64,000 nucleotides of DNA from Octopus vulgaris (lineage: Eukaryota), in contig OX597819.1 in the NCBI GenBank assembly GCA_951406725.2, positions 101,494,001 to 101,558,000 on the forward strand, read 5' to 3'. The position numbers and the translations under genes are program-made. Below the pieces are notes generated by a model. It did no database searches, was not told the origin of the DNA, and was given only the letters and a program-made list of their open reading frames with translations. Positions 9,393 to 61,988 of the stretch are shown here, piece by piece; within the stretch, counting starts at the first letter, position 1; every line of letters starts with the position of its first letter.

Positions 9393-9428
<36 letters not shown>

Positions 9429-9775: not shown

Positions 9776-9819
<44 letters not shown>

Positions 9820-10352: not shown

Positions 10353-10409
10353 TATCACATCTCCTCACATACATGCATATATACATACATATATGCATAT
10401 ATACATTGC

Positions 10410-10707: not shown

Positions 10708-10742
10708 TATACATATATAAATGTATTTGCGTATATGAGAGA

Positions 10743-10799
<57 letters not shown>

Positions 10800-10804
10800 A
10801 GCGT

Positions 10805-10995
10805 CTTTGTGCTTGTGTTCGTTCTAGCTACTCAGTGATAATCGGTGTTGGTTTGTTTAAGTGTTTCTAATGTTGCGGCCCAGCAAACAGGCAAAAATAT
10901 AGATAGGCGTAAGATTAACAATTGGGTCGATTTATCCGACTAATGGCGCAGCTCAAACATGGCCACCTTCCAATGAATGAAACAAGTAAAATAGT
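10805..10995 (+). mobile_element. Family C SINE 3' half, degraded
   Basis: Follows (TG)n; ggtcgatttatccgactaa...catggccac...tgaaacaagtaaaa. Confidence 0.7.
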
Positions 10996-11572
10996 ATAAC
11001 TATGGGCATATGTGTGTATGAATTTACGTTTCCAACACTTTTTTGTCCGTTATGCATAATACAACCAAAAGATGATATACGTCGGAATGTGTGTGGTGTG
11101 CATGCATGTCTGTATATGTATATATGTTTGGCATATAATGATAACTATATAGAAATAGAGAAATATATTTGGAAGTTCAGGAAAGCTTGTGAGTTTCAAG
11201 ACAAAAGGTTTAGTTAATTATGAAGTAACTTTATGTTGTGTGTCTGTGTGTGAAGTCGAGTTATATTCCACTTGACAACATCATCAAGATTTATGAAGCC
11301 ATCGATGATAGATCCAGCCGAGTAATTGCTGCGTTCAGTCGGTGAAAATAAGTAAACGGTGTCATGTGTGCATGATTTAAAATCAATTTAGAAGTATTAG
11401 CATCGCCTTTATTTATCAGTGTGCGCGTAAATTTGTACAAACTCGCGCACCATACATGCAGTGAGATCGCTCTGTATGTGTGACTGTGCACGCGTATGTA
11501 TGCATGTATGCATATTATATATATATATATACACATATATATTAAATATATGTATGTATACACATAAATATC

Positions 11573-11604
<32 letters not shown>

Positions 11605-12300
11605 GTGTGTGTGTATAGGTATATGTATACAAACACATGCACTTGCACACACACATACATACACGCTCAGGTATTTAAATAGAGTAAAAGAGACAGTAGA
11701 GGAAGAGGGAGAAAAATGGCGAGAAAGGGAAAAAGTGAAGAAAAATGAGAAGACGAGAGAAATGTGGAGAGGTATACAGCGAATAGGACACAAAATATTA
11801 TACCTCTCTAAAAGTTAGCAAGATCTACAGTTGACTACTTCCATGCGAATAATGTATTTGAAATAAGAGCATCAAAATTTACTACATTCAAATCAAATGC
11901 TGAAAATGGTGGTTTACAATATTTTGGAAGCCGATTAGTTAATTTTAAGACACAAACCAGCTGACACAAATTCATGAACGATTGTAGCGCATAACTGCTT
12001 GATAATTGTAAGGCTGTGTTGGTGGGCTTCATTTTATGGTATAGTTACATGAATAAATCTGCAACTATCAAGTTAAAGCATTACAATGTCATTCACAAAT
12101 ATACCTCGGTGCCTTATGCAGCGCTCAGTTAAATGCTCCTTTAGGTAAGATCCTATGATGTTAACAAAATGAGATGTAAAAGCATTCATTTGAAAATGCT
12201 TGTGACACTATAAGAGAAATAAAGTACACACTAGGAGTTAACAGTTAACATCTCGTCGTAACGAGCAACTTTCTGCGTGCCGGCAGAAAAGAAAGGTCCT

Positions 12301-12386
12301 TGGGGTCGATGTAGTCGACTTAATCCATTTGTCTGTCCTTGTTTGTACCCTCTGTGTGTAGCCCCTTGTGGGCAATACAGAAATAC
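12301..12386 (+). mobile_element. 5'-truncated family D SINE (3' tail only)
   Basis: tggggtcgatgtagtcgacttaatcc...gccccttgtgggcaatacagaaata. Confidence 0.8.
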
Positions 12387-12411
12387 GAAACAAGCGCTTT
12401 GCAGCTGAAGC

Positions 12412-12800
12412 TCACGACTGATTCCTATGCCTACCTTTATCTACAGTTTCATGAAGATTAGATGTACTAAAATATATGTTGCAGTTGATAACAAATCCAT
12501 CCAAATGGAATTTTGCTTCTCTAACCAAGTTACGAGTCCAGTAACAAAAAGGAATATTTCTTTGTACAATTGAACTTAAAGATGAAAATCTTCCCCGTTT
12601 TTGTAAAATCAAGTGATCTAACTTATAACTTCAGAGAATATGTCACATTGACTTCTGGATGACATTCTCTTGAGATTAAACACCTATTAGAGATGTCTAA
12701 GGATATTGTTCATAATACTGGCCGACTTGTTGAACATTCTCATCTGTCATGGCTGACACTGAATGACTACAGTGAGAAACATTATTAATTCAACCTGTAA
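12412..12800 (-). mobile_element. Highly decayed Tc1/mariner (maT/DD37D-like) transposase fragment
   Basis: REAKFHLDGFVINCN resembles the maT motif DEAxFHLxGxVNxxN. Confidence 0.4.
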
Positions 12801-13072
12801 TCTTCCAATTACCAAAGAGAACATCAATAGTTCTTCTGGTTAGTGGAGCACTTCTAATATCCTACCTTTATCAGAGTTGAATAGAAACTGGATATTGAAG
12901 TCAATATATCGTTTTATCCAACCACGCATGTATTGTACAGTTCTGTAATGTGACTCATATTACTGATTCAGAAATAAGTGCAAATATACTTCATTATATT
13001 GTGTTTTACAGTTTTGTCATATAGCAATAAATGAGAAAACCAATATGGTTTTCGTATTTGTTGCTCTATGTG

Positions 13073-13196
<124 letters not shown>

Positions 13197-13260
13197 AACG
13201 ATAGATAGATAGATAGATAGATAGATATACATACATGCGTATATACATAAATATATATTG

Positions 13261-14290
13261 CTACAAAAGGAAGACAAAACAAAAAAATTGCAGTTTTATT
13301 TGTATTTCTAAATTTCGGAGCTATAACCTCCTTTTCAGGATATTTGGGTTGGAAAAGTAAGGAATGGAAGAGTCATTGCTCAGTGGGGAAGAAAAGAGTA
13401 TGGAAGATGAAGGCGGAAGGTGACATGCGCAAACTGGTGTTGCTATAGTAACCAGTCTGTCTTATGTAGCTTCTTCCTGCCGTTAATGGCTGCTTTCAGT
13501 TCGTTGATTAAGAGGGCCTCCTTGACACTGAGATTGACTCTCTCACGTTGAGAGGCCAAATGGATATTTTAAAATCATGGGTCTGGCACTTCTTTAGGTG
13601 GTATGTTTATTGAAGTGTCTGTGCACTTATGTTCTTTTACTGGAAGGTTAAACCTCCTGGTGGTACTCCCAAAGTAGGATTCCCCACATTTACTGCAGAC
13701 TATTTCATATACCACATAGACCCTCGAGCACGTATTGACGTCATTTACGCGGCAATTGCATAGTGTGCACGACACACCGCTACCTGTGGTATTATTCCCC
13801 CACAGATATTTCCTCAGCGACGAGCGATGTGCACTAAGTGTGCGTTGACAGTTCCTCCCTGCGGATCGCGTGTTGTATAACTGCAGTTATTTTGTCATCG
13901 AAGTTGAGCAGTTTGAGGAAGCACATATCAGTCTTGGGACTATGAGCCCTTTGATATGGTTTACCCACTCTGATGTTTTGTAGATGCAGTCGTTTGGCTA
14001 CAGGTGGCGGATAGATGTTGTGCGTTAAGTTGTTTCGCTGCCTCTGTCGCTTATGCGTGTGATTTCATTTCATACGTGTGTGAATTTGGCTTTGGTGGGC
14101 AGGGCTGATTGTAAAGTTCCTACTGGATGATTTTCTGTAAAAATCAGTATGATGGAACCCTCCTCTATGAATTTGATTTTGGAAATCTAGCAGAAAGTGT
14201 GTTCCGGATTCGTCCTGGTGCTCTATTTCAAATTTGAGATACAGCCCTACTTCCAAGACAGAACATAACTCCGGTTATACAACAGGCGAT
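13261..14290 (-). mobile_element. Penelope-like element 3' part (RT thumb, GIY-YIG endonuclease, hammerhead relic)
   Basis: LKFEIEHQ...FLLDF...TDFYRK...PAH; VVYEIVCSKCGESYFGSTTRRFNLPVKEH; downstream CTGAAAA-GGAG-gttatag-CTCC-GAAA. Confidence 0.85.
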
Positions 14291-14539
14291 CCTCAGAGAG
14301 GAACCCTACATACATATGCTGTGCGCTGGTGCATACCCGTGGAAATGTCTGTTCAAAAATAATATCACAGGTAGCATCGAAGGGTGACACTACTGAATTG
14401 CCCCTTCGATGACGTCAAAAGCTGTTCAAGATCTAACTTTTAGAATCGTATACCTCTCCCTATTTCTCCCTTTTTCTTTCCTTTTCTCTTTCACGCTATT
14501 TCTCTCTCTCTTCCTCTACTATGTCTCTCTTTTTTTATG

Positions 14540-14770
14540 CGGTATGCGAAGTAGTCTGCAGCAAATGTGGGACGCCCTACATTAGTTGTACATTCGAATA
14601 AAAGAACATATGAACATTTCAATTAAAAAAAAAAAAAGAATATCTACTCCAAAGCAAGTTCCCATCGTGAACGTTTCTTCACTTTTGAATGTACACCAAC
14701 ATGTCAAGTGTAAATGTATTACAAGAGCCGAAACAAACATTACAAGGAATCTTATTCGACACTCTAACGA
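14540..14770 (+). mobile_element. Second GIY-YIG (PLE) fragment, opposite orientation
   Basis: Translates roughly VCEVVCSKCGTPYIS...IRIKEH, homologous to 13625-13715. Confidence 0.6.
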
Positions 14771-15899
14771 TTCTGCTACTATGTAGTGAAAAAGTAAAAA
14801 ATGATATATCTATTATAATACATAATGTTATCGCTCATTATAATCTCTTTAATTCTAATGTATTCGATTTTGTTTTTATAGTTTCATCCATGTTGTTTGT
14901 TGTAGTTATTGCTGTTCTTGTAGTTATACTTTTCTTCTATACTGCTGCACAAATTTAAAATTAATAATTAACCAAAATTCAACTAAATATTTTATTGGAA
15001 AAATTATTTAAAAATAATACACACACACACAAACACACATATATTGTTATTTCGAAATAATTTTTCCTATAATGAATACATACATGCGCGCGCGAATATA
15101 TGTATACATGTGTGTATGCGCGTAAATATTAGAAAGGATTTGAGAATATAGACGAAAGGAATATAAGAATGTAAAATATTCGAACGATACCATTGAAGTT
15201 TCTGTACACTTTAGAGTTTAACGGGGCAACAGCAAGATAGGCCAAAAGTCGTAAGAGCAAATCTTGGAATATTCTCTAATATTTATAAATTGTTTCAGAT
15301 TCTAAGACATTTTCATAGGGATTTAATACTGCATTTGTTTTACATTTTTGGATGTTAATTTTAATTAATCGCGTAACAACTAGGGAATCATACATATACT
15401 TCCATTGACTTAAAGGGTCTGTGAATGAGGAATATTTCTATTCGCTTTATGTAGTCTATCCAAACTTTGTGCTCTCTGTTTCTCTTTCAAATTTTCTAAG
15501 AATATCTCGTTTATCAACGTTTATTCCTTACAGTTACATGCAATCTTCATCATGTAGGAGACAGATTCTATTGAGAAGTTAATATCGGTTTTAGAAACCG
15601 TATCAGGGACTGTTCATGCAACTGTCCGGCTAGATTTGTAGGGCCCAACTATTTGTGCTGTATGTGACCACAACTCTGGTTAGGAAAACTTATTATATTT
15701 AATTATTGTGTTTTATATAATTATTTCTTCGTATTTAATTATTTATTCACTATTTATTTACTCTTATTACATCATTATATAATTTACAATAAATTTGTAA
15801 CAAATCTACTTGTTTATGTATTTGCCCTTCCTCTATTTTGTCCTGCGTATAACATATTTTGTATGCTTGAAAGAACCCCGAGGGACAAAATCAAAGAAT

Positions 15900-17480
15900 A
15901 CATTACAAAAGAATTGTTAAAGCTTCAGAGATAATTCCCTTCAGTTCAAAATCTCAAAATCCTGAGTTCAAATCCTACTGTCGTCAACATTGACTTTCAT
16001 TTCATCAGGAACAATAAAATAAAGCTTAACTTGGATAGTTTGGAGCAATTTAATCAACGAACTCTTGGCCCGAATTTTTGGTTTTGTGCGTATGTTAAGA
16101 GTAATTATTACTTTTGCAGGAGCTGGGTTTTAGTAGAGCGATCAAATGGTCAAGAAAAGGGCATTGCAGTATTTACTTATTCCATTTTATATCTTGAGAA
16201 GTCAAATCACATCGAGGTTAATTTTGACTTTCATCCTTCTGGAATCCACAAAATGAAATTACAGTCAATTTGGAGAAAAGAGTACTTGATGATATTGGCC
16301 CTGCTGGTTAATCTGCATTATTCCATAGGGAGTGTAGGGCCAGTTTCCCAGTCTCTCTGACATATATATATATATTCCCTCTACTGGAAGAGACAAAGGT
16401 CCGTTACTGGGTTACTCATTTTTGCCAGCTGAGTGGACTGGAGCAACGTGAAATGAAGTGTTTTACTCAAGAACGCAATGAATCGCCCAGTCTAGGAATC
16501 GAGAGCACAGTCTTACGATCATGGGTCCAACACCCTGACTACTAAGACATGCACCTTCACTGGATTAATGTAATCAGGTTTTACCTCGCAAATTTCTTGC
16601 CTTATGCCAGTATAAGTGTTTGGCAAAATATTTTGGGTTGTCTGACAAAATACCTTATGATATCTGTTCCATCTCCTTCTCTTTTGAGTTCAAGTCCAAA
16701 CGAGGTGTAATTTCACAAGGTTTCGACCCAAGTCGTAAAATAAAGAACCAGTCAATTACAGTTTTCGATCTAATCGAGTAACTACCCCGCCTAAAACTTT
16801 AAAATATTCCTTTATTATTGATGATGAGAAATTACGGGGCGTGCTGAGAGAATCATAAGCTCACCGGAGAAAATACTTAGCAACGGTATTACTTCCGGTT
16901 TTGTGAAATGCTTAGCGGTATTTCGTCTGCGTTACGTTGTGAGTTCAAATTCCGCTGAGGTCGACTTTGCCTTTCATCCTTTCGGGGTCGATAAATTAAG
17001 TACCAGTTACGCACTGGGGTCGATGTAATCGACTTAATACCTATGTCTGTCCTTGTTTGTCCCCTCTGTGTTTAGCCCCTTGTGGGTAATAAAGAAATAG
17101 GTATTACTTCCGGTTTTGCGTTCTGAGTTCAAAATTCTACTCAGGTGGACTTTGCTTTCCATCTTTTCGGAGTCGTGCCAGTTAAGCACTGGGATTGACG
17201 TTGTCGATTAGACCCCTAACTCAAAATTTCAGGCCTTATTATAAAAAGGATTATTGATGATCAGAAATTTGGTGACATGCTGGTTCGTCGAACAAAATGC
17301 TAAAATGCTTAGAGCTATTTATTCCGGCTCTTATCGTTTTAAGCTCAAATCCTACCGAGGCCAACTTTGCTTTCCCTCACTTTCGGTGGTCGATAAAATA
17401 AAGTACCAGTTAAAAACTGGAGTCGATAGAATGGACCTGTCTCCTCCCCACAAAATTTCTAGCCTTCTGCCAAAATTAGA
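15900..17480 (+). mobile_element. Cluster of at least 5 family D SINE copies of different ages plus one inverted family B copy (about 16330-16560, minus)
   Basis: Repeated gagttcaaat...gactttcatcc/gcctttcatcc...taaaataaagtaccag motifs near 15960, 16200, 16690, 16940, 17125 and 17345. Confidence 0.8.
16904..17099 (+). mobile_element. Young 5'-truncated family D SINE with a 19-bp TSD
   Basis: GGTATTACTTCCGGTTTTG at 16885-16903 and 17100-17118; Nin-like gcctttcatcctttcggggtcgataaattaagtaccag. Confidence 0.92.
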
Positions 17481-17589
17481 GGGAAGCACTAATGAGGATA
17501 ATAGAAGATAATGAAGAATATAAAAATTATGACTGAGAATATCACTCAGAAATATGATGGACTTCATTATTAGTCATGTCGAAATTAAT

Positions 17590-18470
17590 GCTGATGATGA
17601 TATTGATGAAGATGTTGATGATGATGAGGATGATGATGATGAGGAGGAGGAGGAGGAGGAGGAAGAGGATGACAATGACGATGACATAACAGCAATGAAG
17701 CAGACGATACCAATAAAAGTTCAATGCTTTTAAAACATAAACAGTAGAGCGTGGATGGTTGCGCAGACTTTAAGGTGTAAAAGGTGCTGTGTGTAAGTAG
17801 AGTTGTTGGCGTTGATGGCGGCGGCGAGGATTACGATATTGGGTGTTGAGTTGGCAATGTTCGAAGTGGAGGAATAGGGAGAGAGAAGTAAGAGAGAAAG
17901 GGAGAGAAGGGGAGAGAGAGAGTGAGAGTGAGAATAAGAATAAAGACGAATATGAATGAGGAGGAGGAGGAGGAGGAAGTGGAGGTGGTGGTGGTGATGG
18001 TGGTGGCGTCGGAGTTAGAGGATGTGTTGGAATAACCGATTTCTTCTGAGTGCTGAGAACTATTGCGTAAGACACCCGACACGTTTGCACGGAATGACAT
18101 AGGAGGCGGGTGTTAGAAGTGGTAGCGGCGGTAGTGTTGGTGGTGGTGTTGGTGGTGATGATGTTGGTGGTGGTGGTGGTGATGGTGGTGAAGATAGTGG
18201 TGGTGTCGGTAGTGGTAATAGTTGGTCTGATGATACTGATGACTGAGGTAGTGAGGTGGGTGTGGCAGGGACCGTTTTTGGGGGTGCTCGGCTTAATGGA
18301 AGTGGAGATTGGTAATGATGATGGTGATGGCGAAGATGATGAAGATGATGGAGCTGATGAAGATGATGGTAATGGTGATGATGTGGTTAATGATGACGAT
18401 GATGATGATGGTGATGGTGATGGTGATGATGTGGACAAAAATGAAGATAGTGGTGACAGATGTTGTTGAC

Positions 18471-18501
<31 letters not shown>

Positions 18502-18560
18502 GTGGTAGAGTTTGTGATGATGGTGCTGGTGACGATGATGGCGGTGCTGGGGATGTGTGT
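17590..18560. repeat. Compound (GAT)n/(GGT)n/(GAG)n low-complexity tract
   Basis: Directly visible trinucleotide runs. Confidence 0.9.
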
Positions 18561-18906
18561 ACTAGTGTTGAGGAGAAGGTGACGGAATAATAGGGAAGCG
18601 AAAGTGAAGGAACGAAAGGGTAGATGTGAGAGGATATCGTGTGAAAATACGAAGCGATGACGACAGCAAGCGATGAGAGCAAAAACTGAGGAATAACGGG
18701 GTGGGTAAATGGATGGCTACGTGAATGGGGGTGGAGATGTAACGAGGTTTTTTTAAATGAACGAAGGGCGTAGTGATGAGGAAATTGTGTAAAACAGTAA
18801 CTTCATGGTGATGGGTTGAGATTTGAGGGGTTAAAAGGAGGAATGGCGTTGCCGTTAAGATATTATTTTGTAGCTTTGATCGTAATAGTGCTTTGGCACC
18901 GATGAT

Positions 18907-19080
18907 CAGTGGTTCCGAACCGGTGTCCATATGAACTTTGGGGATCCATATAGTTTATTTTCATAATTCACGTATAATAAATTCTTAAAGTTTTGCAATA
19001 ATGCAAAATAATATCACATTTTATACAGTTCAAACAATATTTAAGAATAAGAATATGATTGGATGTTTTATGATAAAGGA
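18907..19080 (+). mobile_element. Possible hAT (Charlie-like) MITE left end
   Basis: CAGTGGTTCCGAACC resembles Charlie-type TIRs; no matching right TIR seen. Confidence 0.35.
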
Positions 19081-19122
19081 AAGGTGAGTTTATTTCATTA
19101 TTGTGCAAATGGGAAATTTGGT

Positions 19123-19142
19123 GCTGCTACTGCTGTTATTGC

Positions 19143-19173
<31 letters not shown>

Positions 19174-19700
19174 CTTCTTCTTCTTCTTCTTCTTCTTCTT
19201 CTTCTTCTTCTTCTTCTTCTTCTTCTTCTAGCTCTTCTTCTTCTTCTTCTTCTTTTTCTCGTTCTTCTTCTTCTTCTTCTCCTTCTCCCCCTCCCCTCCT
19301 TCTTTTCCTCCTCCTTCGTTTGTATTCTTCTCCTCCTCCTTCGTTTTATGCTTCTTCTCCTCCTTCCCTCCTCCTCCTTCGTTTTATGCTTCTTCTCCTC
19401 CTTCCCTCCTCCTCCTCTTCCTCCCCCTTCTTCTTCTTCATCTCCCCCTCCCCTCCTTCTTTTCCTCCTCCTTCGTTTGTCTTCTTTTCCTCATCCGCCT
19501 CCTTCTCCCCCCTCCCCCTCATCCTTATCCTTCTTCTTCTTCTCCCCTTTCCCTCCTTCTTTTCCTTATCCTTCGTTTGTCTTCTTTTCCCCCTCCTCCT
19601 CCTTCTCCTCCTTCGTTTTCTGCTTCTTCTCCTCCTCCTCCTCCTCCTCCTCCTCCTTCTTCTTCTTTTTCTTCTTCTTCTTCTTCTTCTTCTTCTTCTT
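19123..19700. repeat. (GTT)n-(CTT)n-(CCT)n polypyrimidine tract
   Basis: About 550 bp that is almost purely pyrimidine on the + strand. Confidence 0.95.
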
Positions 19701-20811
19701 CGTGTTTAGTTCCTAACAAAACCCTAATTGAACAAACGTATTTCAACCATGACCAACATTTTCCTCTAAGAACGCAGAGAGTTCAGGGTCACATTATACA
19801 ACATGTTTCTCTTCTGAAGCTGTTAGGAATGTGATTTGAGGGAATAATTGACTGCAGTTTGTAGTAGGTCCAGTAACAACTCCTCAGTCTCCATTGGTTG
19901 TCCATTTGGTATTTATGATGTCTTTGCAGTTTTATTAATGAATTAAGTGTATGTATGTATATATAAACTTTCAGGATTCAAGCGAATCGGGCATTTAAAT
20001 AGTAAAACACGAAGGTCGGGTCGGTAATATCGCTATCGTGTACAAAACAATATGTACGTATTAAAGTAAACACAGATATACACCACTTGAATATACAACG
20101 AATCTTCAGAGGTGGAATATGGGTACAGACACTCCACGCACTGTACTGCCTTCAACAGACTCCACATCGTAGGAAATTGTAGGTTCCGAGTTAGGTGAAT
20201 GATAAACAAATAACAACAGAATTGTGGAAAATAAAGAGGGTTACGTGAGGAAAAGAAAAATGGACGATGGTCACGTGCGAACAATGAGAGAGAGGAAAAG
20301 ATAATTAGCACACACACATACATACGCACAATGAGACAAAGATAAACATGAACACACACATGCATACACACATGAACATGAACACACAGACACTTGAATA
20401 TTCAGAATACATACATACAAACTTACACACACGCATACATGTATAATACATGCACACATTTGCATGCATATATACACACACATACATGCATACATATATG
20501 TGTATGAACATGTACATTGATATACACACATGTGCACAAACAAATACAAAGAACGCAGCTCCGATAACGAACAGAATCAACGACTGAAGATGTTACAGAA
20601 AGCAACGAAAATTTTAGTAAAAGTAAATAAATATATGAGTGGAAATCGAACCGGTGTATGTATTAATTAATAAGGCATTAAAAGAAAATGACTCTACTCA
20701 GATACAATAAAATATGCTTCAACACATGAAGTCACATAAAGAATCTCGCAAACCAAATACATAAAGGAAATATATGTGTGTGTGTATGTGTATGTATGTA
20801 TGTATATATAT

Positions 20812-20920
<109 letters not shown>

Positions 20921-21247
20921 TATAATGTGCTGGGAGGTGTTCCCAAATATATACAATTATATATTTTATACTGTAAGCATTTAAACATTACCTAACGTAA
21001 AAATCAATACGATGAACAGACGTATGAACAAAAACATTCCATTCATGGCCAAACCGAATCACTAGTTAGGTTTTTAATGATGAGGTGATAAGGAGTGGCT
21101 GTGGTACCTGCAGCCGTATCTAAGGTAGTGTAGAGATGCTATTCAATGTTTCAATTTAATTGGCGATAGTTTTTTATAGCTCTATTGATTTTGGTAGTAG
21201 TCATAGTTATGATACTGCTAGAAGCAGCAGTAGTTTCAACAGTGACG

Positions 21248-21264
21248 GTAGTAGTAGTAGTAGC

Positions 21265-21311
<47 letters not shown>

Positions 21312-21342
21312 CAGCAGCAGCAACAGTAACAGCAGCAGCAGT

Positions 21343-21374
<32 letters not shown>

Positions 21375-21411
21375 TAGTAGCAGCAGCAACAGTAACAGCA
21401 GCAGCAGTAGT

Positions 21412-21476
<65 letters not shown>

Positions 21477-21535
21477 CAGTATTAGTAGTAGTAGTAGTAG
21501 TAGTAGCAGTAGTATTAGTAGTAGTAGTTGTTGTT
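21248..21535. repeat. (GTA)n/(GCA)n compound microsatellite with a higher-order duplication
   Basis: The (gta)n-(gca)n-acagtaaca-(gca)n block occurs twice. Confidence 0.95.
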
Positions 21536-21934
21536 TTTTGCTGTTCGTGAAGTAAAAACAGAATAGTACACTTGTATGCATTAGTAGTAAAATTAATTGG
21601 AAGCGTCAGCATCATCATAGGATCATCAGCAGCGTCATCATGATCCTCATCGTCACCACTTCGTCATCATCATCATCATCATCATCATCAATCATCATCA
21701 TTATTATTATCACCAGCCTCCGTCATCAGTCGAAGATGCCTGTCCATATGAGATACAAAAATTGGAGCAAAATCATACACGAAAAGATAGATATAAAGGT
21801 CAAGCGTTATATTTAATCTAATTTGATCAGAAGCTCTGTTACCTCAAAATAGTTACACAGTGATATAGTTTTTGTATTCATTAAGAATACACATACATTA
21901 TAGCCTTTTGTTCCTTTTACATTAATATATTGGC

Positions 21935-22100
21935 AGAAGCAGCGAGTAGTAGATCGATCCCAGACAAAATGTTCTGCGTTCGAATCCAACCGGAGTTACT
22001 ACTTGCTTCTTTCTTAATCAGTAGTTAATAAAACAATATGCCATTATCAATAAAATTAATTGTTTCCTCCTCACGAAAGGATAGGCTTTGTTCTGATATA
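21935..22100 (+). mobile_element. Degraded family D SINE
   Basis: tgcgttcgaatccaaccggagttactacttgc...ggctttgttc. Confidence 0.4.
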
Positions 22101-22433
22101 AGAAATGCTTAAATATGTTAGAATCATTTCATATAATTCATTGACGAACTAGGAAAGGCCAGAAGTCATTTTAAAGACGCCATATTTCCGATCCTGGTTT
22201 ATGATACTACCAGATGCGAGGCATACAATTTCAGCACAGAAACAATATGACAAAAGTTGGGGAAGATGTTTTGCGGATTAAATCATCACAGGAATTTAAG
22301 CTAATGCTGCTTGAAGAAGAAAAATATATATTAGGGTAAACAGAATGACGACCTACTTAAACCCATTCATTTGTTTGGAACTATATATATATTTACAGGA
22401 ACACACGCGCACACACACCTATGCATGTACACA

Positions 22434-22820
22434 TCTCTCTCTATATAAACGGCAGTTCGTCTGTCTGCGTGTCTGTGTGTCTGTTAGGTTGTACCCTCAC
22501 CCTGACCACGGCTTTCAACCGATTCTGATGAAACTTGACACACACATAGCCCAATGTCATAATTCAAAACTAACGCAGCAAAAATTTTGAAAAGTTCCCC
22601 CAGTTCTGAAAAAAAATCGACAAATTCGACATGGGGTCGAGAATTAGAAACACAAACCACAGACTGTCTAGGGGACGCAACTCGACCTTTTTTATTCTCA
22701 AAAAAAAGTTACCATAATTTTTTTTTTCCATTTTTTTGCTATTTTTTGGCTATAACTCTCTAAAAATGCTTTATAGTTATTTCCCTTACAAACCCGAGCA
22801 ACGCAGGGCGATACTGCTAG
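22434..22820 (+). mobile_element. Complete non-autonomous Helitron
   Basis: 5' TC(TCTCTCTATATAAA), (GTCT)n-like run, subterminal CCCGAGCAACGCAGGG imperfect hairpin, 3' CTAG; inserted between A (22433) and T (22821) with no TSD. Confidence 0.9.
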
Positions 22821-23190
22821 TATATATATAAATACACAAATGTATATATGTACATGCACATATATCAACATACACATATATTTACATTTATGCATATACT
22901 TCTATCTATATATATGTGTATGTATGTGAGTGTGTGTGTGTGTGACTGTGTGTTGTCTGTGTCTGTGTCTGTGTGCATCATGTTTCTCAGTTATATTCGC
23001 TTTATACAGATTCTGATCAGAGATTTATTGGTCAACACTCACCTCTATTGAAGAATATGAAAAGCATTTGCTCATAGTACCAAACTCTAGAAGCGAAACC
23101 GGAATCACGTGCTTGCGAAACGATCTTCTGAATTACCAACCATACCTGCACCCATACATACACACATACACTCGCACATACATACATACA

Positions 23191-23289
<99 letters not shown>

Positions 23290-24964: not shown

Positions 24965-25150
24965 CATGTAGTGAGATGACAGAGTCGTTAACGCGAAGGA
25001 GAAAATGTTTAGCAACATTTTTTCCGTGTCTTTACACTCTGAAATCAAACATCAATAAGTTTGCTTTTCATCCCTCTGAGGTCAATATAATAATCAGTCG
25101 AGTACTGGGGTAATGTAAATGACTTACACCTTCCCGTCAAAATTTTTGTG
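24965..25150 (+). mobile_element. Degraded family D SINE
   Basis: ttgcttttcatccctctgaggtcaata...gagtactggggtaatgtaaatgactta. Confidence 0.6.
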
Positions 25151-25499: not shown

Positions 25500-25739
25500 G
25501 AAAGGCGGCGGGCGAGCTGGCAGAAACGTTAGCAGGCCGGGCGAAATGCGTAGCCGTATTTCGTCTGCCGTTACGTTCTGAGTTCAAATTCCGCCGAGGT
25601 CGACTTTGCCTTTCATCCTTTCGGGGTCGATTAAATAAGTACCTGTTACGCACTGGGGTCGATATAAGCGACTTAATCCGTTTGTCTGTCCTTGTTTGTT
25701 CCCTCTATGTTTAGCCCTTTGTGTGTAGTAAAGAAATAG
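25500..25739 (+). mobile_element. Full-length family D (tRNA head + Nin domain) SINE with a 16-bp TSD
   Basis: TSD gtatatctgtc(t/a)atgt at 25484-25499 and 25740-25755; B box GAGTTCAAATTCC; Nin motif gcctttcatcctttcggggtcga. Confidence 0.92.
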
Positions 25740-26496
25740 GTATATCTGTCAATGTAATCATGTATACGTATCTATCCATATCTGGTAAGGACTCTGCAAC
25801 CAGAGATGACGTGGTCAACAGCCTCATTATGTTGGTTGGGCATTTTTCATAAGTTGCTAGGTTGCACCTTTACTATTGTCATCTCATAAATCTTTACGGA
25901 TAGGCATTGATCTTGTGCTGCGAAAACCAATCCACCCGTTTCTCTTTTTGTCCGAATGTTTAGAATGTTTACTACTCTGTCGAACGTTGCGGGCTATTGG
26001 TCGTGGAGTTTTTTATTTTTCTTTCCATTTATTCTTTAATATCTTTTGTAATGCTGTTTTCATGTTGTTTTAGGTATCTTTAATCTTCTCTGCTGTGTAG
26101 TTATTTAAATTTATCTTCTGGTGCAGTTTGTATCTGGTTGTACTTTCTTGCTGCATTGTGTATAAATAAATAATTTTTCCATGTTTATTCAATTTATCAG
26201 CCTTCTAATTTTTCTTTAGTCTTCCAGTCTGAATTGTTATTTTACTAAAGCTTTCAGTCTGCGTCAGGCCACGTCCTCTTCATGTAGGTATATTCTGTCT
26301 ATGTTTGTATCAGAATGGTAGCTTCAGGACGCAATCAGTATTTGCCTGTTTCCTGTTTAAATTTTTCAACTCACTTAGCCTCCAGTTTATCACATTGAAG
26401 CTGGAATTTATAAGTAGAATGGTTAGTGTATTTATACCTATCAACTTATTGTTAGCATTGTGTTTAGTTCCTATTTATTTCTTTTTTATTCATATC

Positions 26497-26690
26497 AAAG
26501 AGAGGACAAACAAGGACACAAACGGATGAAGTCAATTATATCGACCCCAGTGCGTAACTGGTACTTATTTAATCGACCCCGAAAGGATGAAAGGCAAAGT
26601 GGACCTCGGCGGAATTTGAACTCAGAACGTAACGACAGACGAAATACAGCTACGCATTTCGCCCGACGTGCTAACGTTTCTGCCAGCTCA
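26497..26690 (-). mobile_element. Family D SINE, extreme 3' tail missing
   Basis: Near-identical reverse complement of about 25515-25705. Confidence 0.9.
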
Positions 26691-35127: not shown

Positions 35128-35508
35128 TTCTTTTGTTCTTTTATTCTTTTACTTATTTCAGTCATTTGACTGTGACCATGCTGGAGCACTGCCTTTAGTC
35201 GAACAAATCGACTCCAGGTTTTATTTTTTGTAAGACTAGTACTTATTCTATCGTCACTTTTGCCGAACGTTTAAGTTACTGGGACGTAAACACAACTACA
35301 TCGGTTGTCAAGTGAGGGTAGGGAACACACACACACACATATATATAGATATATATACGGCGGGCTTTTTTCAGTTTCCGTCTGCCAAATTCACTCACAA
35401 GGTTTTGGTCGGCCAAGGCTATAGTAAAAGAAACTAGCCCAAGGTGCAGCGCAGTTGAAATGAAACCAGAACCATGTGGTTGGGAGGCAATCTTCTTACC
35501 ACACAGCT
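35128..35508 (-). mobile_element. Family C SINE, full length
   Basis: Reverse complement homologous to 6869-7284. Confidence 0.9.
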
Positions 35509-52294: not shown

Positions 52295-52492
52295 AGTTAG
52301 CTCTCCGAGCGAAATGCTTAGCAGTATTTCGACTCCCGTTACTTTCTGAAATCAAATTCCGCCGAGTTCGACTTTCCCTTTTATCCTTTCGGGGTCGATT
52401 AAATAAGTACGAGTTACGCACTGGGGTCGGTATAATCACCTTAATCTCTTTCTCAGTTCTTTTTTGTCCCCTCTATGGGCAATAAAGAGATA
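52295..52492 (+). mobile_element. Family D SINE
   Basis: aaattccgccgagttcgactttcccttttatcctttcggggtcgatt...gggcaataaagagata. Confidence 0.85.
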
Positions 52493-52856
52493 AATATTAA
52501 TTTTTTCATTGAAAACTTTTCCACTGTTCTCGGTTCTTTTAACGGTAGGAGTTCAGGTGAGTATACTGGCACAGGTGTAGCCACATTTGAAATATTGTCC
52601 AGGTAACTCTACCTGAAGAAGACTAATCAAATTTACGATAATAAATGTATTTGAAGAGTCCGAAACCTAGGTACGAGATTATCCGATTCTGGGTTGTCCA
52701 TTTATCTACTGTTCTTTCTAGAGGTAAGATGAAATTTTTTATGTTCGCTACACGCATACATATTTGCCAGAATATATACAGTGAAATTTTAATATAGCGA
52801 CGTAAACTTATCGACAACTATTTCCAATAAACATTGGTGTCTTGATGTACCACTGT

Positions 52857-53337: not shown

Positions 53338-55835
53338 AAATATATATATATTTATATATATATATATATATATACCTCTTCATACATACGCAAACAAGAA
53401 CCTACACACTCACAAACACACACACATACAAATACACAAACATACGTTAATATGTATATTTATTTTTCTTCCCCTTCTCTCACTCTGTCTTCATAATTTA
53501 TCGTAATTTATTTATATAATAGTGAGCATGAATGCTCATCACATTTTGTGTATAAGTATATTCTTTAATTATGGATTAACTATGCTACATTAGAATTCCT
53601 GCGAAAACCTTGCAATTTTAAAGCGTTCCCATTAAATGTCGGTATTCTTCCCCTATGTTAGACTAAGATATGTGAGAGGACACGAGACTTTGAAGAACTT
53701 TAAACTTTGCCTGCTGGAATTGAGTGAAACATATGAGACATAGATAAGGGGAGAAAACGTGCGTGCAGTTTTTGTTCGTGTGTGCGGTGAGGTAGGGCAG
53801 TGTTAGGTAAAATATCTATGGCTATTGGCTTTCAAAGCTGTTTCACTACACCATACTAAAACTTAAATAAAGGCATACAGCATGCATCACACCCTTGCGC
53901 ACATGTGTATGTGTATTCATGGCTTTAGTGGTCATTTTATGAGATGTTACATAATTTTAAGCGTTCGTATGTTCATGAAACATATTCAAAAATATGTTCC
54001 TGAGAGCAAGTGAAGAATACATATTCTTATTTATTAACATTAAATCTATTTTCTATCAATTTATTCTGGCGAGGTAGACAAGTGATCATGCTTGAATTTT
54101 CCCAGTTTAAGCTGTTGTTTCTGTAAGCAAGGTGAGAACGTTCCTTCCATAATTTTCAAAACGCCTAATGTTGAATTACGAGATTTAATCTCTCTTTGAT
54201 TACGACATTTCCCGCCGCCACTAGTGTCAATAATTTGCAGTTTCCTTTACCGCGACAGGTGCTAACCAAGTGCTAGCCGTCAATGCCCCTTCTCACCGCC
54301 ATGACCTCTACGACCACTGCAAGAATCGTTTAGAAAATGTCAGTAACTGTTATATTCGTCTATCACCCCCACGACTTCTTAAACGGAAGAAGCAGTGTCT
54401 CTGCTCGCATCACAGTCCACACAGCTGGATCTATATAGACTCAAATGTCGTTACTCAGTTCATCTCTGAGGATGGACCTGTATAACCCATATATATCCTT
54501 GATTATGTTTTCGCAACGGGAACCTACACCTACTTTTTGGACATGAACTCGCCGAGAAGCATCTGACTGAGCATACAAAATCTTCAGTAGATAGTCGACA
54601 CCCGTAGCTAACAGTTGCATGTCCTTTTTTTCCAGATTGTGAAAGCTTAACATAATGTTTAATCTAAATACAGTGAAATTTTAAGACTTCATTTTATTTT
54701 ATGGACATATATGGATGGGATAAGAAAGAGAAGAGACAAAGGAATAAATTATTATCTTCGTTACCTTATAGTTATTTCTGCTATACGATGTTGTGGGCTC
54801 ATAGTTTAGTGCCTGAATAACACCTTATAGCTTCATCGAGGCCTCGAATATGAAATGAAATTTATTGTTGTAAAAGAATTACATTACATGTCTTGTCCAA
54901 TGAACAGAAAAGAACAATATACTCCTAAATGAAAAGAACAATATGTTGATAATTTAATTTGATCCACTTTCGAAAGAGAATATTCTGATACTGCAACATG
55001 CTCTTGTTCTCGGCATATTGTATTGGTGTAACTATTGATAAGAATTTAAACTGAAGTTTCCACGTAAACAGCTAGGTTGACTTGGCCCGCAAGATGTGCT
55101 CCTAGATTCTGATAACTTTCTGGTCTAAAGATGCTCACAACATCATTCTTTTCTACTCTACCGTTGCTCGAATTCACCTTCAATACCGTTGCTACTGTGG
55201 TCTCCCCACACGAAGCAAAGAATTATAAAAGTGGAATCACTCCAGATGTCAATAACTAGAAAGAAAGACGGCATGGCAGCCATTGACTACTGGGGTTGAC
55301 TAAAAAAAATCAATCTCGACTCACTCCAATGCCGCCGTGAGCGCTACATCATTTGTGTGATATGGAGATCAATATTGCAGAAATGATGCTGGCATCAGTT
55401 TTATAATCCACTCAAGAATTTGTCTCCGTGCTATCTGCCGACTACAAAAATCGAACTCAGGACACATAACGACATTACGACACAACTACTTTAACACAAC
55501 CGGTCCAGCTCTCTTTAATGTCATATCAAAATACATAAAAAAATACATCCCATAAAACACAAAAGTTCTCTGGACAAATTTCACCAAAAATTCTCGGACC
55601 AGCCTTCTATACTCGGATATGTCTCTAACAATAATACATCCTTGATAGAATGGGCCATGGTGTCCCATATATGATGGAAGCGTGAATCACGATCTGAAAG
55701 ACTTCACCAGGTGGTGCTATTCAGTTAGACGTGGCCTGAGCCAATACTGACCGAAACCTATCTAAGTTATATGTAAAGACATATATACATACATATATGT
55801 GTGCGTGTGCGTGTGTGTGTGTGTGTTTGTGCGTT

Positions 55836-56699: not shown

Positions 56700-57830
56700 T
56701 GGTATCTTGGGAATACCGTAGAATTGGCTGGTTTTACTTTTGAAATTGGTCATATAGTCATATTCTTTGTCGGTGAGCTCTTCTTTGTATAGGTTTAACA
56801 TGGATTTTTGTTCTCTCATTATTTTTTGCTGACTGTACTTTTGGGTCTTTTCATAATATGTTGTATCTTCCAACATAGATAGTACTAAAGTTATATAAAA
56901 TACCGTGTCCATTATGTCAACTGCACTCCCTTTATTGGCCTCTTTGGTTGTTATTGTTTTGTCATTTTTTAATTTGTTCAGCTCAGTCCATTTTTTTTTT
57001 TGCTGAAGTTTGGTTTGTGTTTTTGTTTGTGCATATGTTGATATGGGTAATTCGAAATGTGTTCACACAAATGATCAAGTGTTTTGAGCGGGGTGCAGTT
57101 ACTCGTATTTCTGACCAACGATTCGTCCTCGTTGTATTTGTCGTATAGCTCCTCAGCAAGACGTAATTTTCTACAGAATTCTGCGATGTCCTCTTTCATT
57201 TCATTGTAGTTGGGGTGTTGTGGGGTGGGTGTAAACTTGAGTCCTTTGGAGAGTATATTGATTTGGTTTGCTGTTAGTTCATTGTGAGTTAGATTGATCA
57301 TTTTTATCACTGTTGGTTACTCCTGTCTCTTTGGTGCTATCTTGTGTCTCTGTGTTTGCGTATTGAGTCTAAAAAATGATTGCGGTGGTTGGGAGGGTAA
57401 CTATTATGTAGTTGTTCCTTGTTGTTGCGGGGTGCCCTGTTGTGATTTATGGTGTGTGTTCTGTGAACAGTATTGAAAAGTGTGTCCCAATAACCCATAT
57501 TCGGGTGTGGTGTTTTAGGGGGCCGTCGTTCGTAATTATTGCGTGTGGTGCGGGTTTGTTGTGCATGGTTGTTTAGTAGGTTGTTGGAACGAAAATTTCG
57601 TTCGTAACTCTTTTTCGGGGGTAGGAGGTTACAGCGTCTATCCTGTGGGTAGTGATTTATCCTTTCTCTGTTTGAAGTTAGGGTACTCCCGAAATTGTAT
57701 TGTTGGTGGCTTACAAAGTTAGGGTTAGGTCCTGTATTATTTTTTGGTAGAAGTGATGGTTCCGATTTTTAGTCAGGTATGTATCAGTGTTTGAGTGTTG
57801 TTTTGATTTTCTTATTTTCTGGAAAGGATT
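56700..57830 (-). mobile_element. Penelope-like element, N-terminal region and start of RT, truncated at a (CA)n run
   Basis: INLT...QINILSKGLKFTPTP...EFCRKLRL; KEANKGSAVDIM...YYEK...FYGIPKI (PLE ADKG and FYGLPKIHK motifs). Confidence 0.85.
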
Positions 57831-57959
57831 GTTCTCTCGATTGGGTTGATGTGTCGAGTCGAATTATATATATATAGCATCTCTTTGATTCGTAATTACT
57901 TATCATATACATCGAAGGTTATCCATTTGCACATAAAGAAAAAGTTGTTGGTACGAAAT

Positions 57960-58560
57960 ACCTAACAAACAATTGACAGTGAAGACCTTCAGATTCCAAG
58001 ATACAACCGAAAATTTAGATTATATTCTATTTCTGTTGAGGGCATCACGCATGTAATTGGAAGCTGCCAAACAATGTCATCAAGTGAAATGATGCTGTCA
58101 CAGAAACAATATACAATACCATTCGGAAAACAGAATGATCAAAAATGTATAGAGACCATATTTACAACATCAACACTAGGAATATTGGTGAAACCATTCC
58201 TGTCAAAACACCCGACAGGTTTAAACATAACAGGCCCGATGTTATTTTGGACAGACAAGAAAAACTATGTACCATCACAGAGGTCAGAAGCCCTTCTGAT
58301 ATAAATATCTCTTTGAGAAGGAAAGAGAAAGAGGATGACAATGGGAAACTGCTCCCACTTTATATATCTAGATTATAAAGTTACATTTATAGCAATTGGT
58401 GTTTTTTCTGTTTAGAGTAAGTTGCCTATGTGATAATTTGGGTAAGCTACGCTTCTCAGGGAGAGAAAACAACGAACTAATACGCGCATTACAAATGCAT
58501 ATTTTTACTGTAAGTGGAACAGTAAAAATATGCGAGACATTCTCAAGTTTGAAATTTGTC
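57960..58560 (+). mobile_element. RLE-type (R4/Dong-like) non-LTR retrotransposon 3' fragment
   Basis: ITHVIGSCQTM; HNRPDVILDRQEKLCTITEVRSPSDINISLRRKEKEDD (PD..D/E nuclease); ...GTVKICETF. Confidence 0.75.
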
Positions 58561-58900
58561 TTTCTTTTTGTTGTCAACCTTCTAGCGGTAGAGTTTGTAG
58601 CTTCGTTACAAACCACCTCCTTCCTCAGCGGAAGAATTCAAGAATTAAAGACAGAAGAGATCATACTTACTTACACACACTCACACAAACACACACACAC
58701 ACAAACATACAAACAAACACACATATGTATGTATGCGCATCTATTGTATCTAACTATAGATAAATAGACAAATAGATACACACATACATGCATGCATACA
58801 TATATACATTCATATAAGCACGCATAGATACACATACATTTTATATATATATATGTATATATACACACATACATATACATATATATATATATATACATTT

Positions 58901-59584: not shown

Positions 59585-59658
<74 letters not shown>

Positions 59659-59679
59659 AATCTATCTATCTATCTATCT

Positions 59680-60668
59680 GCTCTCAAGCAACTCTGCCGT
59701 CCTGGGTCGACCTTGAGTGACTTCAACACAACCAAAGCATTCTATAGGGGTTTAGTGGAGGGGAGGTACGACGACGAGCTCGGGGCGAACCTGGACGTCG
59801 ACGAGGAGTACCTGACCCGCCTGTTCAGGATGACTTTCGGGACAGGGCCCATGGACAACTTCCAGAGATCCCTGGCCTGGCAGTGCTACCGAGAAGCGCT
59901 ACCCGTTCGGGATAAGCTCTACAGACACGGCTCGAGAAACACGGGGCCGACCTGCCCGAGATGCGGTCAGAGCGACGAAACCGTTCTGCACGCACTCGTG
60001 CAGTGTCCAACAATTTCCGACCTGTGGGCTTGTGTCGAACAACTGCTGCCACGTGTGGGACGAGTCGGTTTATCAGCTGAGTCTATCGTTAATATTGTCA
60101 CGCCTCCCTCCTTCAAACGGGAAGGAAGAGCTATTTTCATCATCCTTGTGGCTATGGCGAAAGAATGTATCTGGTGGACGCGTCTGAAATGATTGGAGAC
60201 AAACACTTTCCTCTCTGGTCAATCTCTCATCAACTTCTTCAAGTACCACTTGAAAAGGAAAGTGAGAGTAGAGAGGCAAGTTTTGTCTAGCGAATGCTTT
60301 AAAAAGATGGGTGAATGTAGCAAGAATGGCACGTATGAATGACGAAGCCACCTTGAGCATGATCTAATGAACCCAGAAATTGAAAACAGAGAGTTGCTTA
60401 TTTGCAAAAAAAAAAAAAAAAAGAAATATAACATGTGACTCCATTGACCGAGGTTACCGTGGTCTTTTCCGTAGGCTTTTCTTTCGACGGGTAAACCTCA
60501 CCTGTCCTCCCCTTTACACTTCATATTGACATTTCTGTGATAACGATCCCTATTGATCAAATTTTTTTTTTCCTCTCCCCCTTTTTTTTTTTTAAACCTT
60601 CAAAAGAAAAGCTCTACCTTGTAATTTGTTCTATCTGTGTGCAGCCCTGTGTGGCTAATAAAGAAACA
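59680..60668 (+). mobile_element. 5'-truncated Tx1/L1-clade LINE (ORF2 C-terminal zf-RVT and 3'UTR) inserted in a (TATC)n array
   Basis: W..YREALPVRDKL...CPRCGQSDETVLHALVQC...CIWWTR; frameshifted tail to about 60367; ends AATAAAGAAACA; (TATC)n on both sides. Confidence 0.9.
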
Positions 60669-60688
60669 TATCTATCTATCTATCTATC

Positions 60689-60761
<73 letters not shown>

Positions 60762-61218: not shown

Positions 61219-61988
61219 TGTGGATATGCTGGAGCACCGCCTTTAGTCGAGCAAATCGACCCCAGGACTTATCCTTTGTAAGCCTAGTACTTATTCTATC
61301 GTAGTCTTTTGCCGAACCGCTAAGTGACGGGACGTAAACACACCAGTATCAGTTGTTAAGCGATGTTGTGGAACAACCACAGACACACAATTATATACAC
61401 AAACATACATATATATATATATATATAGAAGATAAGAAAATGGTGAAACACATCTAAATCAAATATCAATTACCAGATAATACTCAATCACATACTTTAT
61501 TAAACCACCACATAAGAGACTGTAGGGTTAAATATAAAAAGCAGAACAAATCAGTGTACATAAAGGAATGTACATAAAAAAGTGTACATAAAAGAGTAAT
61601 GTTGTATAATAATTAGAATATAAATACAAGTAAATATAAATATAAGCATACATTAGATCTTACAGCTGTTTCGGCCATGTCGATGTACACTGATTTGTTC
61701 TGCTTTTTATATTTAACCCTACAGTCTCTTATGTGGTGGTTTAATAAAGTATGTGATTGAATATTATCTGGTAATTGATATTTGATTTAGATGTGTTTCT
61801 CCATTTTCTTATCTTGTATTAGCAATTTGTGGTAAATCATTTTACCTTTGCCCATATAATACAGTAAATGAATGGATTGCATCGCAATCATTAACATTTA
61901 GGTATTAACTTTGTTGGGTACTTCACTAGCAGTATATTGGATATACGTTATCCCATGGAGGGTTGCATTTTCAACCGCTATCTCAATT

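What the first reader, a model, noticed from the sequence alone, without database searches (positions are those of the whole stretch)
60617..60668. Nin-domain SINE shares its 3' tail and stem-loop with a Tx1/L1-clade LINE: candidate SINE-LINE partner pair
Seen: the LINE end ccttgtaatttgttctatctgtgtgcagccctgtgtggctaataaagaaaca aligns with the family D SINE end (17051-17099) ccttgtttgtcccctctgtgtttagccccttgtgggtaataaagaaata at 40 of 49 aligned positions by hand, plus one 3-nt gap. Both form a short hairpin just before AATAAAGAAA (AGCC/GGCT in the LINE; GCCC/GGGY in SINE copies at 12361 and 17075) and neither has a poly(A) tail. The SINE copies have 16-19 bp TSDs. Established: SINEs borrow 3' ends from stringent LINEs, mostly of the L2, CR1 and RTE clades, while mammalian L1 recognises poly(A). 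Inference: a Tx1/L1-clade enzyme with stringent 3' recognition drives this SINE, which is an uncommon pairing.
Basis: partly seen in the sequence, partly recalled or inferred. Interest (0 to 1): 0.75.

Follow-up and report, generated by a model that had tools for sequence, protein, structure and literature searches.

The report
Octopus SINE carries Tx1-type LINE tail
In what is likely an octopus genome, a short mobile repeat (SINE) ends in nearly the same 50 letters as a common long mobile element of the L1/Tx1 group, so it likely borrows that element's copying enzyme, a tail-sharing pairing that the papers we could search report for this enzyme group only in plants and algae.

Summary
The shared 3' end is real. 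Window 60617-60668 matches SINE 17051-17099 at 40 of 49 positions plus a 3-nt gap, above all 2000 shuffles. It is not a stray SINE fragment: in four sequencing runs from four organisms, LINE-version tail letters are covered as deeply as the LINE-only sequence just upstream. The LINE is a 5'-truncated, decayed L1/Tx1-group copy between TATC repeats. Tx1 rather than another L1 lineage is inferred, not shown by a labelled tree. Two corrections: the SINE body is a UCON3 domain, not Nin, and the hairpin is weak (LINE z = 0.06, inner stems offset by one base, no compensatory changes). TSDs hold in 2 of 5 copies. Sister SINEs carry the same body with other tails, which fits a tail swap. Most likely the SINE took its tail from this LINE lineage and is copied by it. 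Strict recognition of the tail is untested. Tail-sharing SINE-LINE pairs are well known, but I found none with an animal L1/Tx1 LINE; Repbase and Dfam could not be checked.

The parts
59680..60668 (+). 5'-truncated copy of a high-copy L1/Tx1-group LINE (end of ORF2 plus 3' UTR)
   Evidence: tblastn to full-length ORF2 homolog P0013, 67% identity over 207 aa; 3,666-23,229 contigs per run laid on 60100-60690
59680..60370 (+). C-terminal part of ORF2 with zf-RVT domain; broken in this copy by a stop at 60190-60192 and a frameshift near 60300
   Evidence: Pfam zf-RVT E=1.7e-8; translations; homologs with RT at 63-72% identity
60617..60667 (+). LINE 3' terminal segment shared with the SINE
   Evidence: depth equal to the LINE-only segment upstream
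60634..60664 (+). predicted interrupted stem-loop (inner stem 60643-60646 with 60653-60656); weakly supported
   Evidence: fold z=0.06; no compensatory pairs
59585..59679 (.). (TATC)n array 5' of the LINE copy (18 + 5 units); candidate target or TSD
60669..60688 (.). (TATC)5 directly after the LINE end; candidate target, TSD or terminal repeat
16904..17099 (+). 5'-truncated SINE copy with complete tail, inserted in an older SINE of the same body type, 19-bp exact TSD
16952..17005 (+). UCON3-type SINE body domain (not Nin)
   Evidence: 27 of 29 letters match the hookworm SINE2-1_NAm row of Fig. S2 of PMC7245038
25500..25739 (+). near full-length SINE copy: A-box-like 25518-25528, B-box-like 25582-25590, UCON3 body, shared tail 25690-25737, 16-bp TSD
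   Evidence: no tRNA call by ARAGORN or Rfam
12300..12385 (+). 3' fragment of the SINE with the shared tail; no TSD found
26470..26690 (-). SINE copy with the tail partly deleted; no TSD found; ends approximate
52300..52497 (+). SINE copy with the tail partly deleted; no TSD found; ends approximate

Best explanation
A UCON3-body SINE with a likely tRNA-derived head ends in a ~50-nt segment homologous to the family-wide 3' end of an L1/Tx1-group LINE, and it is likely copied in trans by the ORF2 protein of that LINE lineage. Shown: the homology; that the tail belongs to the LINE family in four organisms; the LINE's endonuclease-RT-zinc-finger layout; long TSDs at 2 of 5 SINE copies; sister SINEs with the same head and body but other tails. 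Inferred: a template switch or recombination once joined the last ~50 nt of the LINE RNA to an existing UCON3 SINE. RNA polymerase III would transcribe the SINE from its A and B boxes. ORF2p would bind the tail, nick the target with its endonuclease and prime reverse transcription at the A-rich end without a poly(A), leaving 16-19 bp duplications. The tails differ at about 18% of positions, so the working partner may be a sister Tx1-type family rather than this exact one. Whether the enzyme reads the tail's sequence, a loose stem-loop or only the A-rich end is untested; I put strict tail recognition near even odds.
For: 40 of 49 identity, ending at the 3' end of both elements; 0 of 2000 shuffles reach the score for each of 3 SINE copies. 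Summed contig depth in bin 60620-60639 is 1.01-1.30 times that of the mostly LINE-only bin 60600-60619 and 0.55-1.68 times the ORF2 median in 4 of 4 runs. No other letter reaches 10% after 60561, and SINE tails are only 74-81% alike there, below the 85% laying threshold. Full-length homolog P0013 has Exo_endo_phos, RVT_1 and zf-RVT; its best solved relative is human L1 ORF2p (175 bits; R2 proteins 81 or less). Named relatives: Argonauta (73% in the RT region), amphioxus (40%), and a fish element with a ZCCHC3-type RNA-binding/CCHC ORF1. The same SINE body ends in two other tails in the window. Published mollusc SINE-LINE tail homologies span 35-61 bp at 72-95% (PMC11481361).
Against: The predicted hairpin is not more stable than shuffles in the LINE (z=0.06), and only 1 of 3 SINE copies has z below -2. 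No pair of 10 shows a compensatory change, and the inner stems are offset. TSDs are missing at 3 of 5 copies, and their length also fits RTE. The RT tree was only the quick version, held no verified Tx1 or L1 reference and left the deep placement open. No shared target preference is shown: the LINE sits in (TATC)n, one SINE copy in a loosely similar sequence, another inside an older SINE. What follows the tail in other LINE copies could not be seen, because 60656-60690 was skipped as repeat. No whole genome was available, so a closer match to another LINE was excluded only within 64 kb.
Confidence: 0.65

Rival explanations
1. The tail came from the LINE but is a relic. The SINE is copied through its A-rich end by a relaxed enzyme (this lineage or another such as RTE), without specific recognition.
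For: About 18% divergence between the tails, weak fold and no covariation. AATAAAGAAA is itself 8 of 10 A. 16-19 bp TSDs also fit RTE, and RTE-BovB is abundant in octopuses (PMC8967140). Two of 5 copies have partly deleted tails.
Against: Homology is confined to the last ~50 nt of both elements, the pattern of known partner pairs. No poly(A) is present in the window copies. The tail deletions may have arisen after insertion.
Confidence: 0.17
2. The direction is reversed: a master LINE copy picked up a SINE 3' end (by insertion into its UTR or read-through) and spread it to the whole family.
For: The data here give no direction. The LINE UTR upstream of the tail is low-complexity (T and A runs), so a junction would be hard to see.
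Against: The LINE carries none of the SINE body upstream of 60617. The tail is the module that differs among sister SINEs sharing one body, so it needs a source outside the SINE.
Confidence: 0.1
3. The SINE tail derives from a LINE of another clade, and the match to this LINE is secondary or convergent (polyadenylation signal plus TG-rich sequence).
For: No genome-wide LINE library could be searched. Bivalve SINE tails map to CR1, CR1-Zenon, L2 and Nimb.
Against: The match exceeds all composition-preserving shuffles. A tail profile finds only the five SINE copies and this LINE in the window, not the other retroelement fragments.
Confidence: 0.06
4. The tail is a chance SINE fragment lying next to this one LINE copy.
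For: Only one copy of the LINE 3' end is in the window.
Against: Depth is continuous across 60600-60639 with LINE-version letters in 4 of 4 runs. No loose end at 60616/60617 is among the 24 best-supported rows (1089 rows not shown).
Confidence: 0.02

Closest known systems
Maize/sorghum ZmSINE2, ZmSINE3 with LINE1-1_ZM; Chlamydomonas SINEX-3_CR with L1-1_CR (Ohshima 2012 PMC3472496, 2013 PMC3747384)
   Same: SINE shares a short 3' end (about 50-80 nt) with an L1-clade LINE, read as stringent recognition.
   Different: Those are plant and algal, with compensatory changes in the hairpin (maize) and poly(T) or poly(A) ends. Here the host is an animal, the LINE is Tx1-like, there is no homopolymer tail and no covariation is seen.
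Crocodilian SINEU with Tx1-Mar (Kojima 2015, PMC4494074)
   Same: An animal SINE proposed to be mobilised by a Tx1-clade LINE.
   Different: That link rests on shared target preference and age; SINEU has poly(A), an snRNA head, and no LINE was found sharing the SINEU-1 3' end. Here the link is a shared tail, and target sharing is not shown.
UCON3-domain SINEs (Kojima 2020, PMC7245038)
   Same: tRNA-type head followed by the ~50-nt UCON3 body, with exchangeable tails.
   Different: Listed from chordates, nematodes, cnidarians and xenacoelomorphs (21 rows, no mollusc); the hagfish tails assigned there come from RTE or CR1.
Stringent L2 pairs UnaL2/UnaSINE and ZfL2 (Hayashi 2014, PMC4176376)
   Same: Model for how ORF2p could bind a 3' stem-loop through the endonuclease-RT linker.
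   Different: L2 clade, shown by experiment, with a defined stem-loop; nothing equivalent is shown here.
Microsatellite-targeting Tx1 families Kibi, Koshi and crocodilian Tx1 (passages in PMC4494074)
   Same: Tx1-clade LINEs found in microsatellites.
   Different: Their targets are (TC)n, (TTC)n, (TTCC)n and (TTTC)n; here one copy lies in (TATC)n and preference is untested.

Membership tests
SINE-LINE partner pair (shared tail) | significant homology at the extreme 3' ends of both elements | tested here: met
SINE-LINE partner pair (shared tail) | tail is a family-wide part of the LINE 3' UTR | tested here: met
   (contig depth in 4 runs; not assembled copies)
SINE-LINE partner pair (shared tail) | best match among all LINE families of the genome | tested here: inconclusive
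   only the window could be searched
SINE-LINE partner pair (shared tail) | overlapping activity periods and matching insertion signature | tested here: inconclusive
   4 SINE copies are 84-91% alike pairwise; LINE TSD unreadable inside a microsatellite
Stringent-type LINE | conserved 3' stem-loop with compensatory changes | tested here: inconclusive
   similar predicted shape but z=0.06 in the LINE and 0 of 10 pairs compensatory in 4 sequences; too few sequences to exclude it
Stringent-type LINE | 3' tail required for retrotransposition | not testable with these tools
   needs a cell assay
L1/Tx1 group of LINEs | ORF2 with N-terminal apurinic-type endonuclease, RT and C-terminal cysteine-histidine domain, closest to L1 among solved RTs | tested here: met
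   (tested on homolog P0013, 67% identical to the window fragment)
Tx1 clade | RT groups with reference Tx1 elements in a phylogeny | tested here: inconclusive
   quick tree of 46 RTs without verified references; deep branches open
Tx1 clade | ORF1 of RRM/CCHC type rather than Transposase_22 | tested here: inconclusive
   seen only in a related element at window 1280-1915 (atlas leads at 0.89-0.92; Pfam not significant), not in this family
Tx1 clade | target-sequence preference (common, not universal) | tested here: inconclusive
   one copy between TATC arrays that cover 1% of the window
Nin-DC (Deu) SINEs | Nin domain after the head | tested here: not met
   0 matches at up to 3 mismatches to a 23-nt Lottia Nin motif; by eye only a 7-letter stretch is shared with the mollusc Nin sequences
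MetaSINEs | 66-bp Meta domain | tested here: not met
   by eye against the Meta consensus printed
UCON3-domain SINEs | UCON3 body directly after a tRNA-type head | tested here: met
   27 of 29 at 16969-16997, 0.00 expected (row picked as the closest of 21; 1 of the 4 body-bearing copies passes at 3 mismatches)
tRNA-derived SINE (SINE2) | tRNA-related head with A and B boxes | tested here: inconclusive
   box-like motifs with 1-2 mismatches to recalled consensus; ARAGORN and Rfam negative

The most novel reading that the evidence does not exclude
This is the first animal SINE with a 3' tail taken from a Tx1/L1-group LINE. It would show that an animal L1-group enzyme still recognises a specific non-poly(A) RNA end, a natural stringent counterpart to mammalian L1, and it extends UCON3-body SINEs to molluscs.
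Probability: 0.35. Interest if true: 0.7.

Novelty: new variant of a known kind. Interest (0 to 1): 0.52.

Why it matters
Ohshima's survey found only 3 SINEs with L1-clade tails among 58 pairs, all in plants or algae, and proposed that L1-clade enzymes began stringent and relaxed to poly(A) recognition in parallel. An animal L1/Tx1-group element with a tail-sharing SINE and no poly(A) would be the missing animal case. It would allow a direct comparison with human L1 ORF2p, whose structure is solved, to find what decides template choice. It would also name a likely driver for one SINE family in genomes where SINEs are about 12% of the DNA (O. vulgaris, PMC13282606).

Tried and rejected
No whole genome is held. 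Protein-based locus searches found no relatives in genome contigs, metagenome contigs or viral contigs. Tail-motif scans gave 3, 0 and 7 hits; all 10 were chance matches with no similarity beyond the motif and no LINE protein. A phage search was empty. ARAGORN and Rfam did not call the SINE head. The careful RT tree did not finish, and the quick tree cannot separate Tx1 from other L1 lineages. Nin and Meta labels were rejected. TSD length was rejected as a clade marker. Summed contig depth was not used as a copy number. The zero depth at 60400-60435 and 60656-60690 is the tool skipping repeats, not a finding. Earlier scan notes held nothing on this locus. The 29 'TX1' hits in PMC4176376 are mutant names, not the Tx1 clade.

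Full report
Observation. In a self-search the LINE end hit only three SINE tails significantly (17056, 12342, 25695; E 3e-6 to 1e-4), and the SINE hit the LINE only at 60625-60666. Local scores of the 300-nt LINE UTR against the three SINE copies were 45, 40 and 40, and 0 of 2000 dinucleotide shuffles reached them in each case. All three alignments start at 60617 and end at 60667, so the homology is about 50 nt and terminal. Five copies of the SINE lie in the window; three have a full tail and two a partly deleted one. TSDs were found at 2 of 5: 19 bp exact and 16 bp with one mismatch, against 0 of 1500 random pairs. No copy has poly(A).

The LINE. 59680-60668 is the end of an ORF2 with a zf-RVT domain, a stop at 60190-60192, a frameshift near 60300, and a 300-nt UTR. 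It lies between TATC arrays (59585-59679 and 60669-60688; such arrays cover 1% of the window). Six longer relatives are 63-72% identical. A cluster member of 1111 aa (P0013; 67% identical over 207 aa) has endonuclease, RT and zf-RVT domains and no RNase H hit. Among solved structures it is closest to human L1 ORF2p (175 bits) ahead of R2 proteins (81 or less). Named relatives are an Argonauta protein (73% in the RT region), an amphioxus protein (40%) and a fish element whose ORF1 has ZCCHC3-type RNA-binding domains and a CCHC knuckle. RRM/CCHC ORF1s go with Tx1-type elements in non-mammalian animals (PMC5203782, passages). A quick tree of 46 RTs groups the five closest proteins, Argonauta among them (support 99), but has no verified reference and leaves deep branches open. 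L1/Tx1 group is therefore shown; Tx1 in the strict sense is inferred. The octopod host is inferred from hits to Octopus bimaculoides and Argonauta proteins.

Is the tail part of the LINE family? No genome was held, and collection searches gave nothing usable. Of 24 listed runs, 18 hold at least half of the LINE's sampled words, from four coded organisms. I laid one run of each organism on 60100-60690 at 85% likeness; 3,666 to 23,229 contigs were laid per run. Summed depth in bin 60620-60639 (tail) is 1.09, 1.01, 1.30 and 1.23 times that of bin 60600-60619 (17 of its 20 bases are LINE-only), and 1.22, 1.68, 0.55 and 1.06 times the median of seven ORF2 bins. No other letter reached 10% after 60561. 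SINE tails are 74-81% alike over this stretch, under the threshold, so the depth is not from SINE contigs. No loose end at the junction is among the 24 best-supported rows; 1089 rows were not shown. The depth is no copy number, and the last 13 bases and the flank were skipped as repeat, so poly(A) and target in other copies remain unseen.

The SINE. The near-complete copy at 25500-25739 has A-box-like and B-box-like motifs (recalled consensus, 1-2 mismatches), though ARAGORN and Rfam call nothing. The body is not Nin. A 23-nt Lottia Nin motif has 0 matches at 3 mismatches, and the mollusc Nin sequences in the supplement of PMC4758252 (file 4, parts 3-4) share only a 7-letter stretch by eye. 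It is not Meta either (consensus). It matches the UCON3 domain of PMC7245038 (section 7 and supplement 1): 27 of 29 letters to the hookworm row at 16969-16997, 0.00 expected. I chose that row as the closest of 21, and 1 of the 4 body-bearing copies passes at 3 mismatches. That figure lists no mollusc. A profile of the head and body gave 15 window hits. Five are this family, two end inside or at the body, and the others continue after the same body end into two different tails (one at 16677, 17101, 17303 and 25003; another at 7156, 35256 and 61301); the remaining hit at 5539-5653 is cut off. The tail is thus an exchangeable module, as described for other SINE superfamilies (PMC4824008 section 9; PMC5786205 passages).

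The stem-loop. The LINE tail and two SINE tails fold into a similar interrupted hairpin, but z-scores are 0.06 (LINE), -1.36, -2.48 and +0.74. In the ungapped four-sequence alignment, 0 of 10 pairs change on both sides. The SINE register breaks one inner pair in the LINE, and the LINE register breaks one in all three SINE copies. The maize pair, by contrast, shows compensatory changes. Four close sequences cannot exclude a structure, but they give no positive support.

Mechanism. Most likely (0.65) the SINE gained the LINE's last ~50 nt by template switching and is copied in trans by ORF2p of this lineage through target-primed reverse transcription. The homology, family membership, domain layout, TSDs and tail exchange are shown. 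Transcription, binding, direction of transfer and strictness are inferred from the established behaviour of stringent LINEs (PMC4176376 passages). The tails differ by about 18%, inside the 72-95% identity range of bivalve pairs (PMC11481361 passages). A closer partner may exist: O. vulgaris has 80 L1-Tx1 families, 13 recently active (PMC13282606 parts 1-2 of 3 and supplement search), and a different related element lies at window 1-2550 (endonuclease 45% identical to P0013). TSD length does not discriminate, since RTE-driven SINEs give about 17 bp. Rivals: relic tail with relaxed or foreign mobilisation (0.17), reverse transfer (0.10), another clade as source (0.06), chance neighbour (0.02).

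Comparison and novelty. Ohshima's table of 58 pairs has 3 SINEs with L1-clade tails, in maize and Chlamydomonas, and none with Tx1 (PMC3747384 passages and tables part 1; PMC3472496 passages). The bivalve survey found CR1, CR1-Zenon, L2 and Nimb partners, and 'Tx1' does not occur in its text. SINEU is tied to Tx1-Mar by target preference, has poly(A), and no LINE shares the SINEU-1 3' end (PMC4494074 passages). Ten full-text searches returned no animal SINE with a Tx1 tail and no mollusc UCON3 SINE. I saw listings for most hits and passages of PMC5804259, PMC3531059, PMC11121367 and PMC8967140. Subscription papers, Repbase, Dfam, SINEBase, Albertin 2015, figure images and one unreadable supplement file of PMC4824008 were not seen, so prior description cannot be excluded. 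That octopus tRNA-derived SINEs were described in 1994 is seen only as a citation; whether this family is among them was not checked. One earlier scan note from another genome (e1-7511667) concerns a Tx1/L1 tail running past an internal AATAAA; it is a reminder that the true end needs more copies, and I did not test it.

Verdict. The feature is real and partly mislabelled: a UCON3 SINE, not Nin, with a weakly supported hairpin. It is a new variant of a known kind, interest 0.52.

Noticed in passing
window 1-2550 (-): 5' half of a related L1/Tx1-group LINE: ORF1 with a CCHC knuckle (1277-1915), then a frameshifted endonuclease 45% identical to P0013; probably a different family from the 3' fragment.
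   Followed up: partly
window 59585-59679 and 60669-60688: The LINE copy is flanked by (TATC)n on both sides. Tx1 families often target microsatellites, so a (TATC)n-preferring family is possible; one copy only.
   Followed up: partly
window 17090-17104 and 25729-25744: Both TSD-bearing SINE copies read AAAGAAATAGGTAT across the 3' junction, so their TSDs begin alike (GTAT). This could be microhomology priming or a nick preference; n=2.
   Followed up: no
window 16677-17437, 25003-25126, 7156-7260, 35150-35256, 61220-61301: Two other SINE families share the UCON3-type body but have different tails (one AT-rich ending near ATT repeats, one beginning GGCGGTGCTCCAGCA); their partners are unknown.
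   Followed up: partly
window 16850-17240: The SINE copy at 16904-17099 is nested inside an older SINE with the same body type.
   Followed up: partly
window 56700-57850 (-): Decayed reading frame that by eye resembles a Penelope-like element (recalled motif, not tested).
   Followed up: no
window 57900-58570 (+): Decayed fragment that by eye resembles the restriction-like endonuclease end of an R2/R4-type LINE (recalled motif, not tested).
   Followed up: no
window 54300-55770 (+): Decayed fragment that looks like the 3' part of another LINE with an unrelated end; not matched by the tail profile.
   Followed up: no
proteins P0006, P0017: Relatives of this LINE ORF2 are annotated as Herbaspirillum sp. 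MAG proteins, likely host DNA in a bacterial assembly.
   Followed up: no
proteins P0007, P0059: Pieces of this LINE's ORF2 appear inside predicted Octopus bimaculoides proteins (a Rho GEF and neprilysin-1): exonisation or annotation error.
   Followed up: no
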